A stretch of DNA of 39,752 nt from Escherichia phage Ebrios. The stretch lies in the sequence record MG966531. One strand, 5' to 3'. Of this stretch, positions 30,057 to 36,686 are shown piece after piece (within the stretch, counting starts at the first letter, position 1; every line of letters begins with the position of its first letter). The position numbers and the translations under genes are program-made. The notes beneath the pieces are model-generated. The model was not told where the DNA came from and searched no databases. It was given only the letters and a program-made list of their open reading frames with translations.

Positions 30057-33000
30057 ATGGATAAGTACGATAAGAACGTACCAACTGAGTACGATGGTCT
30101 GTTCCAGAAAGCTGCTGATGCCAACGGGGTCTCCTATGACCTTCTGCGCAAAGTGGCGTGGACAGAATCCCGCTTCAAGCCTACCGCCAAGTCTAAGACT
30201 GGCCCGTTGGGCATGATGCAATTCACACAGGCAACCGCTAAGGCGATGGGCCTCAAAGTAACCGGAGGTGATGACGACGAACGTCTGGTGCCCGAACTGG
30301 CAATCAACGCTGCCGCTAAGCACCTAGCGACCCTCGTGGGGAAGTTCGACGGTGACGAACTCAAGGCTGCCCTTGCGTACAACCAAGGGGAAGGCCGAGT
30401 TGGCGGTAAGCAATTGGAAGCCTACGCCCGAGGCGACTTCGCGTCTATCTCTGAGGAAGGTCGCAACTATCTGCGCTCCCTGATGGACGTGGCTAAATCT
30501 CCTATGGCTGGTCAATTGGAGTCCTTTGGTGGCATCACCCCGAAGGGTACTGGTATCCCTGCTGACCAAGCGTTTGCAGGAATCACCAACGACCGGAAGC
30601 GCAAGGTAGGCACTGACCTGCCGGAGTCCACTGGGTTTGACGTTAAGGGTATCGCACAGGAGGGAAAGGCCGACTCGTTCGGTCATTCCTTTTGGAAGTA
30701 CCACGGTGAAACCCTTGACGAATACAACGAGCGTTCCACATTCTTCGGATTCTCTGGTGCTGCCGAAGCCGAACTCTCTAATTCACTCCTTGGAGTTGCC
30801 GCTCGTGCTGCTCGCCTCGACAACGGTTACGATGTTTTCATCGACACTATTACGCCGACTCGCTGGAACTCTCACGTCTGGACTCAAGAAGAGTTAGCGA
30901 AGATTAGAACTGAGGTGAAGAACCCTGCGTACATCAACGTGGTAACTGGTGGTTCCCCAGAGAACCTTGACGCCCTCATTAAGCTGGCTAACGATAACTA
31001 TGCGCTGGACGCTAAGGCGGCTGATGCGGGCCTTGGGGCTAAGCTGAGTGCGGGTGTCTTGGGTGCTGGTGTTGACCCGTTGAGTTACGTTCCGATGGTA
31101 GGCGTGACTGGTAAGGGATTCAAACTGGTGAACAAGGCGATGGTAGTAGGTGGCCAGAGTGCTGGACTTAACGTAATCTCTGAGGGTCTGCGTACCTCCG
31201 TTGCTGGTGGTGATGCTGACTACGCTGGTGCTGCCTTGGGTGGCTTTGTGTTCTCCGCTGGCATGACTGCCTTGGGTGACACCTTGGCTTCCCGAATGAG
31301 CCGCAATAAGCCGGACGCTCAGTTCACCAACGAGTTCGCTGGGCCAGCCATCCGAATGGAGGCCCGAGAGACTGCACGTAACGCCAACTCCACTGACCTG
31401 TCCCGAGTGAACACCGAGGGCATGGAGTTCAAAGGAGAACACAACGGTGTTCCGTATGCAGACTTCAAGGCCGAGGAAGGCGCTGTAGTCCTACACGATG
31501 GTTCAGTCATTAGTGCTGGCAACCCGATTAACCCGAAGACTCTGAAAGAGTTCTCCGAGGTTGACCCAGAGAAGGCCGCTTGGGGCATCCGCCTTGGTGG
31601 GCTGACCGAGATTGGCTTGAAGACCCTTGGGTCTACCAATGCTGACGTTCGGAGACTTGCGAGTGACCTTGTGCGCTCACCGACTGGTATGGAGTCCGGT
31701 GCTTCTGGTAAGTTCGGGGCTACCGCCTCTGACATCCATGAGCGTCTTAAGGGCACCGACCAGCGCACCTACAACGAGCTGTATGCTGCGATGCGGGTAG
31801 CGATGGATGACCCTGAGTTCTCCACTGGTGCCGCCAAGATGTCTCGGGAACAGGCCCGCTACGAGGTTTACCGCAGGGCTGCCCTTGCGATTGAGCGACC
31901 GGAACTCCAAGCAAACCTGACGAAGGCTGAGCTAGGCGTGATGAACATCATCAAGCGGCACTTCGACACTAAGCGTGAACTGATGGAGAACCCTGCGACC
32001 TTTGGGCGATTGGATGCCAAGAGTATCTTCCCAGAGAGTCGCCATAAGGGAACCTACGTCCCGCACGTTTACGACCGAAGTGCTAAGCAACTGATGATTC
32101 GGCGGTACGGTGCCGAAGGTCTCCAAGAGGCCATTGCCCGTTCGTGGCTCACCAGCTACGCATCCCGTCCCGAGGTTAAGGCACGAGTTGATGAAATGCT
32201 GGCTGAACTTCACGGTGTCAAAGAGGTAACGCCAGACATGGTGACTAAACACGCTATGGACAAGGCTTACGGTATCTCTCACTCCGACCATTTCTCCAAT
32301 AGCTCTATCATTGACGAGAACATCGAGGGTCTGGTAGGTATCGAGAACAACTCCTTCTTGGAGGCTCGTAACCTCTTTGACTCTGACCTTCCGGTGACTC
32401 TGCCGGACGGCCAACAGTTCTCCGTGAATGACCTGCGTGACTTCGATATGTTCCGCATCATGCCAGCGTATGACCGCCGCATCAACGGTGACATTGCCAT
32501 CATGGGCTCAACAGGGAAGACCACTAAGGAACTAAAGGACTCCATAATGGAGCTGAGCAAGAAGGCCGAGAACAACGGTCAGCTAAAGGGCGAAGTGGAG
32601 GCTCTCAAGGATACCGTCAAGATTCTCACTGGGCGAGCCCGTAGGAATCAAGACACTGCCTTCGAGACTGCGCTACGTTCCATCAATGACCTTGGGTTCT
32701 TCGCTAAGAACGCCTACATGGGCGCTCAGAACATCACCGAGATTGCTGGTATGCTGGCAACAGGTAACGTTCGAGCATTGGGTCATGGTATCCCGATTCT
32801 GCGGGACACTCTCTACAAGTCTAAACCTGTGAGTGCTTCTGAGCTCAAGGAAATCCATTCGTCTCTGTTCGGACGTGAGGTTGACCAGTTGATTCGTCCC
32901 AAGCGAGCTGACATTGTGCAACGCCTTCGGGAATCGACCGACACTGGGCCACTCACCGCCAACATCGTTGGAACCTTGAAGTACAGCACTCAGGAACTTG

Positions 33001-34022
33001 CAGCCCGCTCTCCGTGGACTAAGCTGCTGAATGGTACGTCCAACTACATTCTCGATGCCGCACGTCAAGGGCTCCTTGGGGATGTCATTGAGGCGACCCT
33101 CAAGGGCAAGACTACCAAGTGGGAATCTGAGGGTTTCCTTCGAGGTGCCTCTGTGTCTCCTGAGCAGATGGCCGGAATCCGGTCACTCATTAAGGAACAC
33201 ATGGTTCGTGGAGAGGACGGTAAGTATTCCGTTAAGGACAAGCAGGCATTCAGTCTTGACCCACGGGCGATGGACTTGTGGCGACTGGCCGATAAGGTTG
33301 CCGATGAAGCGATGCTGAGGCCGCACAAGGTTTCCTTACAGGACTCCAAGGCGTTCGGTGCGCTTGGTCGGATGGCGTTGCAGTTCAAGACCTTCACCAT
33401 CAAGTCCCTGAACTCCAAGTTCCTGCGGATGTTCTACGATGGCTACAAAAATAGCCGAGCGATTGACGCTGCACTCACTGGGATTATCTCAATGGGTCTT
33501 GCTGGCGGATACTACGCTATGGCTGCCCACGCTAAAGCCTACGCTCTACCTGAGGAGCGGCGAAAGGAGTACCTTGAGAAAGCACTGAACCCGACCATGA
33601 TTGCTCACGCTTCATTGTCCAGAAGTGCCCAACTGGGTGCCCCGATGGCGATGGTTGACCTTGTAGGTGGTGGTGTCTTCGGCTTTGAGTCCTCAAAGAT
33701 GGCCCGTTCGTCAATCCTTCCTAAGGACACTTCGTACCAGCGCGACCCCAACAAGCCGTACACCGCTCAGGAGGTACTTGGAAACATGGGGCCTAACCTG
33801 CTGGAGCAGATGCCTTCGGCTGGCTTTGTGGCTAACGTTGGTGCTTCCGTGCTTAACGCTGCGGGAGTCGCTACGGCACCCAACAAGGCTACCGAGCAGG
33901 ACTTTATGACTGGCTTGATGAACTCCTCTAAGGAGCTCGTACCGAATGACCCGTTGACCCAACAGCTAATCCTCAAAATCTACGAAGCCAATGGCATCAA
34001 TTTGAAGGAGAAGCGCAAGTAA
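30057..34022 (+). CDS. 16: Gene 16 internal virion protein D with N-terminal lytic transglycosylase domain
   Basis: 1321 aa; N-terminus MDKYDKNVP..YDGLFQKAADANGVSYDLLRKVAWTESRF.PTAKSKTGPLGMMQFT.ATAKA.GL matches T7 gp16. Confidence 0.95.
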   Translation: MDKYDKNVPTEYDGLFQKAADANGVSYDLLRKVAWTESRFKPTAKSKTGPLGMMQFTQATAKAMGLKVTGGDDDERLVPELAINAAAKHLATLVGKFDGDELKAALAYNQGEGRVGGKQLEAYARGDFASISEEGRNYLRSLMDVAKSPMAGQLESFGGITPKGTGIPADQAFAGITNDRKRKVGTDLPESTGFDVKGIAQEGKADSFGHSFWKYHGETLDEYNERSTFFGFSGAAEAELSNSLLGVAARAARLDNGYDVFIDTITPTRWNSHVWTQEELAKIRTEVKNPAYINVVTGGSPENLDALIKLANDNYALDAKAADAGLGAKLSAGVLGAGVDPLSYVPMVGVTGKGFKLVNKAMVVGGQSAGLNVISEGLRTSVAGGDADYAGAALGGFVFSAGMTALGDTLASRMSRNKPDAQFTNEFAGPAIRMEARETARNANSTDLSRVNTEGMEFKGEHNGVPYADFKAEEGAVVLHDGSVISAGNPINPKTLKEFSEVDPEKAAWGIRLGGLTEIGLKTLGSTNADVRRLASDLVRSPTGMESGASGKFGATASDIHERLKGTDQRTYNELYAAMRVAMDDPEFSTGAAKMSREQARYEVYRRAALAIERPELQANLTKAELGVMNIIKRHFDTKRELMENPATFGRLDAKSIFPESRHKGTYVPHVYDRSAKQLMIRRYGAEGLQEAIARSWLTSYASRPEVKARVDEMLAELHGVKEVTPDMVTKHAMDKAYGISHSDHFSNSSIIDENIEGLVGIENNSFLEARNLFDSDLPVTLPDGQQFSVNDLRDFDMFRIMPAYDRRINGDIAIMGSTGKTTKELKDSIMELSKKAENNGQLKGEVEALKDTVKILTGRARRNQDTAFETALRSINDLGFFAKNAYMGAQNITEIAGMLATGNVRALGHGIPILRDTLYKSKPVSASELKEIHSSLFGREVDQLIRPKRADIVQRLRESTDTGPLTANIVGTLKYSTQELAARSPWTKLLNGTSNYILDAARQGLLGDVIEATLKGKTTKWESEGFLRGASVSPEQMAGIRSLIKEHMVRGEDGKYSVKDKQAFSLDPRAMDLWRLADKVADEAMLRPHKVSLQDSKAFGALGRMALQFKTFTIKSLNSKFLRMFYDGYKNSRAIDAALTGIISMGLAGGYYAMAAHAKAYALPEERRKEYLEKALNPTMIAHASLSRSAQLGAPMAMVDLVGGGVFGFESSKMARSSILPKDTSYQRDPNKPYTAQEVLGNMGPNLLEQMPSAGFVANVGASVLNAAGVATAPNKATEQDFMTGLMNSSKELVPNDPLTQQLILKIYEANGINLKEKRK

Positions 34023-34042
34023 TACGACTCACTATAGGGAGA
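34020..34042 (+). promoter_or_regulatory. Phage promoter phi17 (class III)
   Basis: TAATACGACTCACTATAGGGAGA, overlapping the gene 16 stop. Confidence 0.9.
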
Positions 34043-34092
34043 GGGAAGACCTCCTTCTCCCGCTTTCTGATTCACTTTAAGAGGAGGTTTGC

Positions 34093-36048
34093 ATGGCTAA
34101 CGTGATTAAAACTGTGCTGACTTATCCGCTGGATGGCTCGACTACGGACTTCAACATCCCGTTCGAGTATCTGGCCCGTAAGTTTGTAGTGGTGACTCTG
34201 CTTGGTGCAGACCGCCGAGTCCTGACGTTGCCCACCGATTACCGATTCGCTACCCGCACGGTCATTGCAACCAACAAGGCGTGGGGGCCAGCCGATGGTT
34301 ACACTCAAATCGAAATCCGCCGAGTGACTTCGGCCACTGAGCGACTGGTGGACTTTACGGATGGCTCGATTCTCCGAGCGTATGACCTGAACGTCGCCCA
34401 AATCCAGACCATGCACGTTGCTGAGGAGGCCCGTAACATGACCGCCGATACTATCGGTGTCAACAACGATGGTCACTTGGATGCCCGTGGTCGTAGGATT
34501 GTTAACTTGGCGTATGCCACAAGTGACTATGATGCCGTTCCTTTAAAGCAGATTAAAGAGCGTGAATTCTCTGCATGGAATGCCGTAACAAAAGCTAACG
34601 AACACGCTGACCGTTCCAATAAGGAAGCAAACAGTTCTCGTGACGAGGCCAACCGCGCTCAACGTGAAGCTGACCGCTCAACGCAACAGGCAGGCGTCTC
34701 TACTCAACAAGCAGTCGAGTCCAAGAAGCAAGCTGACCGTTCCGGCTCCGAGGCTAACCGAGCTAAAGGCTATGCTGATGGCATGACCGCAAGCGTCGCT
34801 GAGGCCAAGACGCAAGCTGACCGTTCCGGCTCTGAGGCCAATCGTGCCAGTGATGGGGCCAATCGTGCTGCCGGAGAAGTGACTAAAGCTGCTGCTGAGG
34901 TTGCCAAGGCTGCTGCACATGTTGAGACCGCTAAGGGACATGCTGATAGGGCTAACGTTGAGGCAAACCGCTCCAAAGGTGAGGCTGACCGTGCTAAGTC
35001 TGAGGCCAATAGGGCACAACAAGCAGTCCAATACGTGAAAGACCTTGGTGCTGTTCCTGTAGGTACTATCGCTATGTTCGGAACTGCCGCCATTCCTGCT
35101 GGCTGGTTGTCCCTTATGGAGGACGACCCTATCTTTGATGTTAGGGTTTACCCAGACTTGGCCAGATTGTACCCTACAGGACACCTACCGTCCTATAAGG
35201 ACAGGGTGCCGGAAGGTGTAGGCTCAGGTATCACTCTTGGTCAGAAACGCGCTGGTAATGTTGGTGTAACTTCGGCTATTATGCTACAGACCGATACAGT
35301 TGACTTAAACCATTCACATGATTTCTCAGGGAGCACAACAAGTGGTGGCGAACATGAGCACTTCATTAACTCACTAAACCAGCGGTCTGACTCAGGGGTT
35401 TACCCTACAATCGAATGGTCGAACTGGCGCTCGCCAAACCCGCCAAACTGGACTAAGACAGCAATTGGTGGTAAGCATTCCCACTCAGTCAGTGGTATTA
35501 CAGCCGGTATGAAAAATGGAGTTGGTCAGAAACACAACCACACTATCTCTGGTGTAGTTGGGTCTGGTCGGAACTTAGTTGATGCAACGGGTACTATTTT
35601 TGCGATTAAAGCATTTGGGACAGTTGCCAATGAAGGGTCTCTAGATGCACCTGCACTTAGTGGCTCAATCCAGCGTGTTAACAACAGGGTCAGTACACTT
35701 GAAACAGCAGTTGGGTATGGGAGGAAGGTGAACATTTCCGACCTTCTTGTTCCAGCAACTGGGTGGACTTTTAATAATGATGAATGCCCAGTCCTAGAGA
35801 CAGCTAGTGGGTACATCGTGAGAGCCATATTCCGAGGAATTGGAAGCTCTGGCTCTACAACACGCAACATGTGTACGTTGAAAGCTGGTCTCAAGTGTGT
35901 TGGTTATTCAGCCGCTGTTGTGTATAACCCTACCCTTCCAACAGGAGCTGGTTATGTCGAGTTACTACACCCAAATTACCTAGCCGTTGCTGGGAGTAAT
36001 GGCCCGTATGGGTGGGTTATGGCAACACTAACATTAGAGAAAGTATAA
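34093..36048 (+). CDS. 17: Gene 17 tail fibre, chimeric: T7-like N-terminal and shaft regions, divergent distal collar/HxH domain
   Basis: First ~150 aa match T7 gp17 (MANVIKTVLTY.LDGS...VNNDGHLDARGRRIVNLA); middle has ADRS/EANRA-type repeats; distal ~330 aa carry PVGTIAMFGTAAIPAGWL and HSH/HEH/HSHS/HNH motifs. 651 aa versus 553 in T7. Confidence 0.9.
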   Translation: MANVIKTVLTYPLDGSTTDFNIPFEYLARKFVVVTLLGADRRVLTLPTDYRFATRTVIATNKAWGPADGYTQIEIRRVTSATERLVDFTDGSILRAYDLNVAQIQTMHVAEEARNMTADTIGVNNDGHLDARGRRIVNLAYATSDYDAVPLKQIKEREFSAWNAVTKANEHADRSNKEANSSRDEANRAQREADRSTQQAGVSTQQAVESKKQADRSGSEANRAKGYADGMTASVAEAKTQADRSGSEANRASDGANRAAGEVTKAAAEVAKAAAHVETAKGHADRANVEANRSKGEADRAKSEANRAQQAVQYVKDLGAVPVGTIAMFGTAAIPAGWLSLMEDDPIFDVRVYPDLARLYPTGHLPSYKDRVPEGVGSGITLGQKRAGNVGVTSAIMLQTDTVDLNHSHDFSGSTTSGGEHEHFINSLNQRSDSGVYPTIEWSNWRSPNPPNWTKTAIGGKHSHSVSGITAGMKNGVGQKHNHTISGVVGSGRNLVDATGTIFAIKAFGTVANEGSLDAPALSGSIQRVNNRVSTLETAVGYGRKVNISDLLVPATGWTFNNDECPVLETASGYIVRAIFRGIGSSGSTTRNMCTLKAGLKCVGYSAAVVYNPTLPTGAGYVELLHPNYLAVAGSNGPYGWVMATLTLEKV

Positions 36049-36060
36049 GGAGACAATACA

Positions 36061-36177
36061 ATGGCCCTTGAAACTTCACAGGCAGGAGACCAGCTCTTAT
36101 GGGCACTCCCTGTTGGTGGAGCTATTGCCACTAACATTGTGGCTATACAGTTCATAGGCCTTACACTTAACGACTAA
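36061..36177 (+). CDS. Small hydrophobic ORF between tail fibre and holin genes (unknown)
   Basis: 38-aa ORF MALETSQAGDQLLWALPVGGAIATNIVAIQFIGLTLND with RBS TAAGGAGA 7 nt upstream; T7 has no gene here as far as I recall. Confidence 0.35.
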   Translation: MALETSQAGDQLLWALPVGGAIATNIVAIQFIGLTLND

Positions 36178-36198
36178 CTATATGGAGACATTTCGTGT

Positions 36199-36402
36199 AT
36201 GTTGACGCTAGATTTTAACAACGAGGTCATTAAGGCTGCGCCCATTGCTGGCGTGGCCGGTGCCGATGGTGTGGCTCGCCTGTTCTGGGGCTTGTCGCTT
36301 AACGAGTGGTTCTACGTGGCCGCTATCGCCTACACAGTGGTTCAGATTGGTGCCAAGGTAGTCGATAAAGTAATTGACTGGAAGAAAGCCAGTAAGGAGT
36401 AA
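36199..36402 (+). CDS. 17.5: Gene 17.5 holin
   Basis: 67 aa, ML.LDFNNE.IKAAPI.G...ARLF.GLSLNEWFYVAAIAYTVVQIGAKVVDK.IDWKKA.KE as in T7 gp17.5. Confidence 0.92.
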   Translation: MLTLDFNNEVIKAAPIAGVAGADGVARLFWGLSLNEWFYVAAIAYTVVQIGAKVVDKVIDWKKASKE

Positions 36403-36407
36403 CCACT

Positions 36408-36686
36408 ATGAGCAAACAACAGGACAAGAGCCTGACGGTGTTCCTCGAAATGTTGGACACTGCGATGGCTCAACGAATGCTTGCAGACCTTGGGGATGAC
36501 GACCGCCGTTCTCCTCAACTCTACAACGCAATCAACAAACTACTTGACCGCCATAAGTTCCAAATCGGCAAGCTGCAACCTGACGAGCACATTCTCGGTG
36601 GACTTGCGGGTGCCTTGGAGGAATACAAGGCGAAGGTGGGCGATACTGGTCTGACTGACGACGACCTGTACTCCACCATCCAGTGA
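36408..36686 (+). CDS. 18: Gene 18 terminase small subunit (DNA maturation protein A)
   Basis: MSKQQDKSLTVFLEMLDTAMAQRMLADL... matches T7 gp18. Confidence 0.92.
   Translation: MSKQQDKSLTVFLEMLDTAMAQRMLADLGDDDRRSPQLYNAINKLLDRHKFQIGKLQPDEHILGGLAGALEEYKAKVGDTGLTDDDLYSTIQ

What the first reader, a model, noticed from the sequence alone, without database searches (positions are those of the whole stretch)
34729..34852. Imperfect direct DNA repeat inside the tail-fibre shaft coding region
The ~40-bp segment CAAGCTGACCGTTCCGGCTC(C/T)GAGGC(T/C)AA(C/T)CG(A/T)GC occurs at 34729-34768 and again at 34813-34852, encoding two QADRSGSEANRA units within a longer series of ADRx/EANRx repeats. Such repeats are substrates for slippage or recombination that changes shaft length and fibre reach.
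Basis: seen in the sequence. Interest (0 to 1): 0.2.

Follow-up and report, generated by a model that had tools for sequence, protein, structure and literature searches.

The report
Heptad repeats in T7-like tail-fibre shaft
The repeated DNA is real, but it is the ordinary nucleotide trace of a repeated seven-residue motif that builds the coiled-coil rod of a T7-like phage tail fibre; one close relative shows that these repeats can recombine and lengthen the rod by exactly ten such units.

Summary
Two 47-nt copies (34717-34763 and 34801-34847, 41/47 identical, sharing a perfect 20-mer) lie 84 nt apart in gene 17 (34093-36048). This is far above the codon-shuffle null and slightly above what the protein sequence alone would give.

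The pair is the strongest match within a 21-nt (heptad) periodic region. That region holds 22 unbroken heptads of the form x-[A/V]-[D/N]-R-[A/S]-x-x, spanning aa 164-317. It is predicted as one continuous helix (aa 151-319) and corresponds to the triple coiled-coil proximal section of T7 gp17.

The repeat pair is old. It is present, with copy-specific synonymous differences, in most of 13 compared phages. The length of this shaft type is invariant in about 80 records.

Aeromonas phage KFSA9 carries a perfect 210-nt (70 aa, 10 heptad) tandem duplication.

Across T7-like phages, shaft lengths differ only by whole heptads (115, 122, 157 and 227 aa). No nucleic-acid-level function was found. Verdict: a known kind of feature, of low interest.

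The parts
34093..36048 (+). Gene 17, tail fibre protein (651 aa plus stop)
   Evidence: ORF. Pfam PF03906 (Phage_T7_tail) over aa 1-155, E 1.7e-61. T7 gp17 PDB chains 7boz/7ey9, E 7.9e-84. Lies between gene 16 (30057-34022) and genes 18/19, as in annotated relatives.
34093..34557 (+). N-terminal tail-anchor domain (aa 1-155)
   Evidence: Pfam PF03906. 97-98% nt identity to IME15, avDM11-UST and KFSA9.
34543..35049 (+). Alpha-helical shaft (aa 151-319), containing 22 unbroken heptads at aa 164-317 (34582-35043)
   Evidence: Heptad table. Position 2 is A16/V6 and position 5 is A12/S8/M/V. No Pro. Hydrophobicity period is exactly 3.50, with power 155 against 39 +/- 10 in shuffles. AlphaFold2 single-sequence model gives one helix over fragment residues 12-180, pLDDT about 90-94. 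DNA self-identity is 0.446 at offsets that are multiples of 21, against 0.297 at other multiples of 3.
34717..34763 (+). Repeat copy 1 (ESKKQADRSGSEANRA).
   Evidence: family D1.
34801..34847 (+). Repeat copy 2 (EAKTQADRSGSEANRA).
   Evidence: family D1 (87% to copy 1).
34606..34617 (+). First occurrence of the 12-mer GCTGACCGTTCC (ADRS); left exchange site of the KFSA9 duplication
   Evidence: 12-mer at 34606, 34732, 34816; family D4.
34732..34743 (+). Second occurrence of the 12-mer, inside copy 1
34816..34827 (+). Third occurrence of the 12-mer, inside copy 2; right exchange site of the KFSA9 duplication
   Evidence: The megablast match to KFSA9 breaks at gene nt 735, which is window 34827.
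34606..34815 (+). The 210-nt (10-heptad) unit that is single here and tandemly duplicated in Aeromonas phage KFSA9
   Evidence: alignment. KFSA9 unit 1 versus unit 2 is 210/210; the window unit is 199/210 to each.
35008..36045 (+). C-terminal receptor-binding module of non-T7 type, joined to the shaft inside the last EAN/EAD heptad
   Evidence: All relatives diverge from the window after ...GCTAAGTCTGAGGCC. The only nt match is Aeromonas phage T7-Ah, 86% over gene nt 928-1622. T7-Ah gp17 shares AQAVQDVKNLGAVPVGTIVMFG and onward. Weak Collar PF07484 hit and weak T4 gp37 2xgf hit.

Best explanation
The repeat is the DNA-level image of a repeated heptad motif, x-[A/V]-[D/N]-R-[A/S]-x-x, in the proximal shaft of the gp17 tail fibre. 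That shaft is a long parallel alpha-helical coiled coil, trimeric by homology with T7, that links the N-terminal tail anchor to the receptor-binding tip. The small residues at heptad positions 2 and 5 form the core, and each heptad adds about 1 nm of rod. The two QADRSGSEANRA copies are an old internal duplication, or conversion product, of part of this array. They are kept alike mainly by selection on the protein. Because the repeats are all in the 21-nt phase, they also act as occasional substrates for unequal exchange or replication slippage. Such events add or remove whole heptads without breaking the coiled-coil register. Relative to the window, KFSA9 shows one such event: +10 heptads, or about +10 nm. 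Shown here: the repeat, the heptad phase, the helix prediction, the KFSA9 duplication with its junction, the length invariance elsewhere, and length quantisation in heptads. Inferred: the trimeric state, the mechanism of the exchange, and any effect on host reach.
For: 1. Repeat significance: 36/40 against nulls of 24.7 and 29.6. Ten of the 12 best self-matches fall at offsets divisible by 21. Autocorrelation is 0.446 against 0.297. 2. Coiled-coil signature: 22 unbroken heptads with an Ala/Val and Ala/Ser core, and hydrophobicity period exactly 3.50. The model is a single 169-residue helix at high pLDDT. 3. Comparison with T7: its proximal section is described as a triple-helical coiled coil ending at a hinge at aa ~266-272 (PMC13485008). 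The window aligns collinearly to T7 gp17 over aa 1-266. 4. Age of the pair: both copies occur in 11 of 14 sequences at 36-44/47 identity. The copy-specific synonymous differences (GCT AAC CGA versus GCC AAT CGT) are conserved by position. 5. Length change by exchange: KFSA9 has a perfect 210-nt duplication with a 12-mer junction. 6. Length quantisation: the distance from DAVP to EADKL is 115 aa in T7/T3-type fibres, 122 in IME15, 157 in the Berlin type and 227 in KFSA9. All equal 3 mod 7, so the differences are 1, 6 and 10 heptads. 7. T7 is reported to delete between direct repeats at a frequency that rises exponentially with repeat length (Pierce et al. 1991, as cited in PMC4362386). 8. No RNA family, no promoter or terminator in the repeat, and RNA folding weaker than shuffles, z = +1.89.
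Against: The oligomeric state and real coiled-coil packing were not modelled, since only a monomer was predicted. Only one of about 83 records shows a length change. A perfect 210-nt duplication in a single deposited assembly could be an assembly or propagation artefact. The excess of DNA identity over the synonymous-permutation null is modest (36 against a maximum of 34) and rests on gene-wide codon usage. An Ala/Ser-rich core is unusual for canonical coiled coils, so the exact packing is uncertain.
Confidence: 0.85

Rival explanations
1. Pure protein-level convergence. The two copies are similar only because the coiled coil demands the same residues and the phage uses a narrow codon set. On this view there is no shared descent or DNA exchange between the copies, and no role as a recombination substrate.
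For: All self-similarity is in heptad phase. The motif A-[DN]-R-[AS] recurs 12 times. Four of the last five codons of the copies differ at synonymous sites.
Against: The observed 36/40 exceeds all 100 synonymous-codon permutations of the same protein, whose maximum is 34. The first six codons use identical codons in both copies in almost every phage. The KFSA9 junction shows the 12-mer has in fact been used for an exchange.
Confidence: 0.1
2. Ongoing intragenic gene conversion (concerted evolution) keeps the copies alike and moves patches between heptad blocks. The repeat family would then be actively homogenised and not merely conserved.
For: Codons 218 and 246, the same position in the two copies, covary between lineages: GGC/GGC in the window and KFSA9, GAC/GAC in EG1, and AAC/AAC in seven others. 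IME390 (L018) also has Asp at both positions. In PYPS50, Yepe2 and Sekstaphage-1, copy 2 is replaced by an AKGHADRSNK-type block resembling the heptads at 34603 and 34939.
Against: Flanking copy-specific synonymous differences persist in the same phages, so any conversion tract would be under about 27 nt. AAC to GAC is a single change that could recur independently. Parallel selection on equivalent surface positions is not excluded. There are only two or three lineage events.
Confidence: 0.3
3. The repeat is a nucleic-acid-level functional element, such as an RNA structure, a regulatory site, a programmed slippage site, or a diversity-generating template/variable pair.
For: None found beyond the existence of the repeat.
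Against: No Rfam match at E <= 1. No promoter-like or terminator-like site in 34560-35050. RNA folding is weaker than in 197 of 200 shuffles. Differences between the copies are T/G, A/C, C/T, T/C, C/T and A/T, so they are not adenine-specific as in DGRs. TRF finds no tandem array.
Confidence: 0.02

Closest known systems
Proximal (coiled-coil) section of bacteriophage T7 gp17 tail fibre (Steven et al. 1988, cited in PMC11990801; PMC13485008)
   Same: Same gene position. The N-terminal anchor domain is homologous (E 7.9e-84). A heptad-periodic helical rod begins at the same DAVP..Q motif. NEANR/EADR-type motifs are also present in T7 (L031).
   Different: The shaft here is 157 aa from DAVP to the EADKL-equivalent position, against 115 aa in T7, a difference of 6 heptads. 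The shaft sequence is only about 40% identical to T7. The tip module is not T7-like.
Berlinvirus-type gp17 shaft (Yersinia phage Berlin, Yepe2; Escherichia phages S523, BA14, 285P, FE44)
   Same: The shaft is collinear and of the same length, 77-93% nt identical. The same two-copy QADRSxSEANRA repeat occurs at the same positions.
   Different: The window combines this shaft with an IME15-like N-terminal domain and a T7-Ah-like tip. It has Gly in place of Asn at the sixth repeat residue in both copies.
Aeromonas phage vB_AroA_KFSA9 gp17 (PQ824399.1)
   Same: Same anchor and same shaft sequence, about 95-98% nt identity. Same GGC codon in both copies.
   Different: KFSA9 carries a perfect 210-nt tandem duplication of window-equivalent 34606-34815. 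It also has a T7-like EADKL hinge and a different tip.
Deletion/duplication between short direct repeats in T7 (Pierce, Kong & Masker 1991, as cited in PMC4362386)
   Same: A T7-like replisome and recombination system. The direct repeats are 12-20 nt and lie 84-210 nt apart. The KFSA9 junction falls exactly in a 12-nt identity.
   Different: The published system measured deletions of engineered inserts. Here the documented natural event is a duplication, and its frequency is unknown. The original paper could not be read.

Membership tests
T7-type tail fibre gp17 | N-terminal Phage_T7_tail domain (PF03906) that docks on the tail | tested here: met
   E 1.7e-61, 207 bits against a cutoff of 25.2, aa 1-155. 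T7 gp17 PDB chains at E 7.9e-84.
T7-type tail fibre gp17 | Gene position between gene 16 (internal virion protein D) and genes 17.5/18/19 | tested here: met
   ORFs. The annotated relatives have the same order.
T7-type tail fibre gp17 | T7-like distal half-fibre and tip domain after an EADKL hinge | tested here: not met
   The window diverges from all T7- and Berlin-type relatives after aa ~306. The tip resembles T7-Ah gp17, with weak Collar and T4 gp37 similarity.
Alpha-helical coiled coil | Unbroken heptad periodicity with apolar or small residues at the a and d positions | tested here: met
   22 heptads. Position 2 is A16/V6 and position 5 is A12/S8/M/V. Period is 3.50, power 155 against a shuffle maximum of 85.
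Alpha-helical coiled coil | Continuous helix without helix breakers | tested here: met
   No Pro in aa 157-317. AF2 gives a helix over aa 151-319, pLDDT about 90-94.
Alpha-helical coiled coil | Parallel trimer | not testable with these tools
   Only monomer prediction is offered. Trimer status is inferred from T7 gp17 (PMC13485008).
Tandem-repeat or contingency locus with variable copy number | Head-to-tail array of near-identical units | tested here: not met
   TRF returns 0 rows at score >= 30. Outside the 47-nt core the copies are only 56/84 identical over the full 84-nt unit.
Tandem-repeat or contingency locus with variable copy number | Copy number differs among close relatives | tested here: inconclusive
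   One variant (KFSA9, +210 nt) was found. There were no indels in 12 aligned phages or in the listed Berlin-type rows among 82 covering records.
Diversity-generating retroelement target | Template/variable repeat pair differing at adenines, plus a nearby reverse transcriptase | tested here: not met
   Differences between the copies are not A-specific. The window was not scanned for a reverse transcriptase.

The most novel reading that the evidence does not exclude
The in-phase 12-20-nt repeats of the shaft could form a built-in 'length ratchet'. Recurrent unequal exchange and short-tract gene conversion among heptad blocks would generate fibre-length variants in whole heptads. Selection would then use these variants when the phage meets hosts with different surface-layer thickness. 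The KFSA9 +10-heptad fibre (listed host: Aeromonas hydrophila) would be an adaptive example. The paired G/G, D/D and N/N states of the two copies would be the footprint of conversion.
Probability: 0.12. Interest if true: 0.4.

Novelty: already known. Interest (0 to 1): 0.15.

Why it matters
The main value is as a clean negative: the repeat needs no special explanation beyond coiled-coil heptads. Three modest points are useful. First, there is a natural, sequence-resolved case of a fibre shaft lengthened by 10 heptads through a 12-nt in-phase repeat. Second, shaft lengths across T7-like phages are quantised in heptads (115, 122, 157 and 227 aa). This is practical knowledge for anyone engineering chimeric T7-family tail fibres, because junctions and length changes should preserve the 7-residue register. 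Third, gene 17 here is a three-part mosaic of anchor, shaft and tip, with junctions at the ends of the coiled coil.

Tried and rejected
- Tandem Repeats Finder on the gene found nothing. The repeat is dispersed, not tandem.
- The word-indexed protein search with the shaft, which I limited to E <= 1e-20, returned a single 330-aa hit and gave no length survey. The threshold was too strict for a low-complexity coiled coil, and I did not spend a second search.
- The IMG/VR scan returned 23 loci, mostly the same isolate genomes already in the phage collection.
- The metagenome scan returned only 6 loci, all with T7-type or other shafts. These were not included in the length table.
- A nucleic-acid-level function was rejected: no Rfam match, no promoter or terminator in the repeat, and no stable RNA fold.
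- A DGR-type reading was rejected because the copy differences are not adenine-specific.
- The two long antisense ORFs over the shaft (34678-35184 and 34770-35093, minus strand) were treated as by-products of the Ala/Glu/Arg-codon-rich repeat and not as genes. No homology test was run on them.
- The original T7 direct-repeat deletion paper (PMC328481) is not held. It is cited only through PMC4362386.
- A T7 coevolution paper (PMC9797572) reports many gp17 mutations, but the passages read did not mention shaft indels.

Full report
**Context**

The window is a complete-length T7-like podophage genome of 39,752 bp. It is about 93-95% identical at nucleotide level, over 86-94% of its first 25 kb, to Stenotrophomonas phage IME15 and to Aeromonas phages PZL-Ah1, KFSA9 and avDM11-UST.

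The finding lies in the ORF 34093-36048 (+), 651 aa. This is gene 17, the tail fibre:
- Pfam PF03906 (T7 tail fibre N-terminal domain) covers aa 1-155 at E 1.7e-61.
- T7 gp17 chains in the PDB match at E 7.9e-84.
- The neighbours are gene 16 upstream and genes 18/19 downstream, as in annotated relatives.

Yes. The 20-mer CAAGCTGACCGTTCCGGCTC is present at both 34729 and 34813.

The similarity ends at 34763/34847, not at 34768/34852, and it extends 12 nt further upstream. The best description is 34717-34763 versus 34801-34847: 41/47 identical, 84 nt apart (family D1).

In an exhaustive ungapped self-comparison of the gene, this is the best 40-nt match, at 36/40:

| Comparison | Matches out of 40 |
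|---|---|
| Observed pair | 36 |
| Codon-shuffled genes (100) | 24.7 +/- 0.9, max 28 |
| Same protein, synonymous codons permuted (100) | 29.6 +/- 1.4, max 34 |

There is also a small excess of identity beyond what the amino-acid repeat dictates.

**What the repeat belongs to**

Ten of the 12 best self-matches lie at offsets divisible by 21 nt. Within the shaft, mean base identity is 0.446 at offsets that are multiples of 21. It is 0.297 at other multiples of 3 and 0.231 out of frame.

Laid out in sevens, aa 164-317 form 22 uninterrupted heptads of the type x-[A/V]-[D/N]-R-[A/S]-x-x:
- Position 2 is Ala 16 / Val 6.
- Position 5 is Ala 12 / Ser 8 / Met 1 / Val 1.
- There is no proline.
- The hydrophobicity spectrum peaks at exactly 3.50 residues. 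Its power is 155, against 39 +/- 10 (max 85) in 500 shuffles, with almost nothing at 3.6.

A period of 3.50 is the signature of a coiled coil; a free alpha-helix would give 3.6. AlphaFold2 on the single sequence gives one continuous helix over aa 151-319, with pLDDT about 90-94.

In T7 the equivalent proximal section is described as a triple-helical coiled coil. It runs from a 'shoulder' at aa ~144-160 to a hinge at aa ~266-272 (PMC13485008). The trimeric state here is inferred from that homology and was not tested.

**Age and conservation**

I aligned the shaft of 13 other phages: KFSA9, S523, EG1, Carena, PhiV-1, FE44, 285P, BA14, Yanou, PYPS50, Yepe2, Sekstaphage-1 and BSP161.

- Eleven of the 14 sequences, counting the window, carry both copies at the same positions, with 36-44/47 identity between the copies.
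- The copy-specific synonymous differences (GCT AAC CGA in copy 1, GCC AAT CGT in copy 2) are conserved by position across phages.
- The pair therefore predates the divergence of these phages and has been kept by selection on the protein.
- In PYPS50, Yepe2 and Sekstaphage-1, copy 2 is replaced by an AKGHADRSNK-type block resembling other heptads of the same shaft (28-33/47).

**Does it change shaft length?**

There is one clear case. KFSA9 gp17 (693 aa) is 95-98% identical to the window through the anchor and shaft, but contains an extra 210 nt.

- The extra segment is a perfect tandem duplication: unit 1 versus unit 2 is 210/210.
- The perfect direct repeat runs 222 nt, because both units and the following sequence begin with GCTGACCGTTCC.
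- In the window this 12-mer occurs at 34606, 34732 and 34816, and 34816 minus 34606 is 210.
- The KFSA9 allele is thus exactly what an unequal exchange or template switch between the first and third 12-mers would produce.
- The gain is 70 aa, or 10 heptads. At about 0.15 nm per residue of coiled coil (textbook geometry, an inference), that is about 10 nm of extra rod.

Against a view of the locus as freely variable:
- The other 12 aligned phages have no indel anywhere in the shaft.
- In a tblastn survey, every listed Berlin-type record matches 207 aa to exactly 621 nt, from 91% down to 66% identity. Eighty-two records cover at least 80% of the query.
- In the blastn survey, 70 of 74 records cover the region in one collinear place.

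**Length quantisation across the family**

I measured the distance from the conserved DAVP motif at the start of the rod to the EADKL motif just before the T7 hinge:

| Fibre type | DAVP to EADKL (aa) |
|---|---|
| T7, phiA1122/T3-type and relatives | 115 |
| IME15 | 122 |
| All Berlin-type shafts | 157 |
| KFSA9 | 227 |

All four values equal 3 mod 7, so the differences are 1, 6 and 10 heptads. In this sample, shaft length evolves only in whole heptads. That is expected if the coiled-coil register must be preserved and if in-phase repeats mediate the changes.

T7 itself is reported to delete between direct repeats at a frequency that rises exponentially with repeat length (Pierce, Kong & Masker 1991, as summarised in PMC4362386). 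The original paper was not available.

**Hint of exchange between copies**

The sixth residue of the repeat (codons 218 and 246) covaries between the two copies:
- GGC/GGC in the window and KFSA9.
- GAC/GAC in EG1. IME390 (L018) also has Asp at both positions.
- AAC/AAC in seven others.

In a parallel coiled coil these positions are 28 residues apart, about 4 nm, so direct contact is unlikely. Short-tract gene conversion is the simplest reading. Parallel selection or independent single-base changes are not excluded, and the flanking copy-specific sites would limit any conversion tract to under about 27 nt.

**No nucleic-acid-level function**

- There is no Rfam match at E <= 1 in 34000-36500.
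- There is no promoter-like or terminator-like site within the repeat region.
- RNA of 34700-34870 folds less stably than 197 of 200 shuffles (z = +1.89).
- The differences between the copies are not adenine-specific, so a DGR-like pair is rejected.

**Mosaic structure of the gene**

- Anchor: 97-98% identical to IME15-group phages, whose shafts differ.
- Shaft: Berlin-type, 93% identical to Escherichia phage S523.
- Tip: sequence after about 35007 is unrelated to T7- or Berlin-type distal fibres. It matches only Aeromonas phage T7-Ah, at 86% nt, whose gp17 shares the junction AQAVQ-VK-LGAVPVGTI-MFG.
- The shaft-tip junction sits inside the last EAN/EAD heptad.

**Verdict**

It is a known kind of feature and of low interest.

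Noticed in passing
window 35008-36045 (gp17 aa ~306-651): The fibre tip is not T7-like. It has a weak Collar-domain hit (PF07484, aa 324-373, E 0.0038, below the curated cutoff) and a weak match to the T4 gp37 tip (2xgf, E 0.0026). It contains several His-x-His motifs (HSHDFSG, EHEHF, KHSHSVSG, KHNHTISG). The only nucleotide relative is Aeromonas phage T7-Ah (86%). Gene 17 is therefore a three-part mosaic of anchor, shaft and tip.
   Followed up: partly
window 34744-34746 and 34828-34830 (codons 218 and 246): The same position of the two repeat copies covaries between phage lineages: Gly/Gly here and in KFSA9, Asp/Asp in EG1 and IME390, Asn/Asn in seven others. This hints at short-tract gene conversion between the copies.
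   Followed up: partly
L010, L011 and L012 (PYPS50, Yepe2, Sekstaphage-1), region aligned to window 34790-34850: In these three phages the second copy is replaced by an AAKGHADRSNK/AAKGHAESASK-type block. It resembles other heptads of the same shaft (window 34603 and 34939), suggesting patchwise exchange among heptad blocks.
   Followed up: no
window 34678-35184 and 34770-35093, minus strand: Two long antisense ORFs (168 and 107 aa) overlap the shaft. They are probably artefacts of the repetitive GC-rich codon pattern. No homology test was run.
   Followed up: no
window 34037-34061 (+), between gene 16 stop (34022) and gene 17 start (34093): A 10-pair GC-rich hairpin (GGGAGAGGGAAGACCTCCTTCTCCC) sits in the short intergenic space, followed by a T-poor tail. 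Relatives annotate a phage promoter (phi17) in this gap. The role of the hairpin was not examined.
   Followed up: no
window 34705-34727 and 35017-35039: QQAVESKK and QQAVQYVK are encoded by 23-nt segments that are 78% identical (D5). The second lies right at the shaft-tip module junction. This may be chance, or a trace of the recombination that joined the modules.
   Followed up: no
whole window: No record in the phage collection matches gene 17 end to end: 0 of 53 records cover at least 80% of it. The best genome-wide relatives are about 93-95% identical over 86-94% of the first 25 kb. The phage appears to be an undescribed member of the IME15 / PZL-Ah1 / KFSA9 group with a novel fibre combination.
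   Followed up: partly
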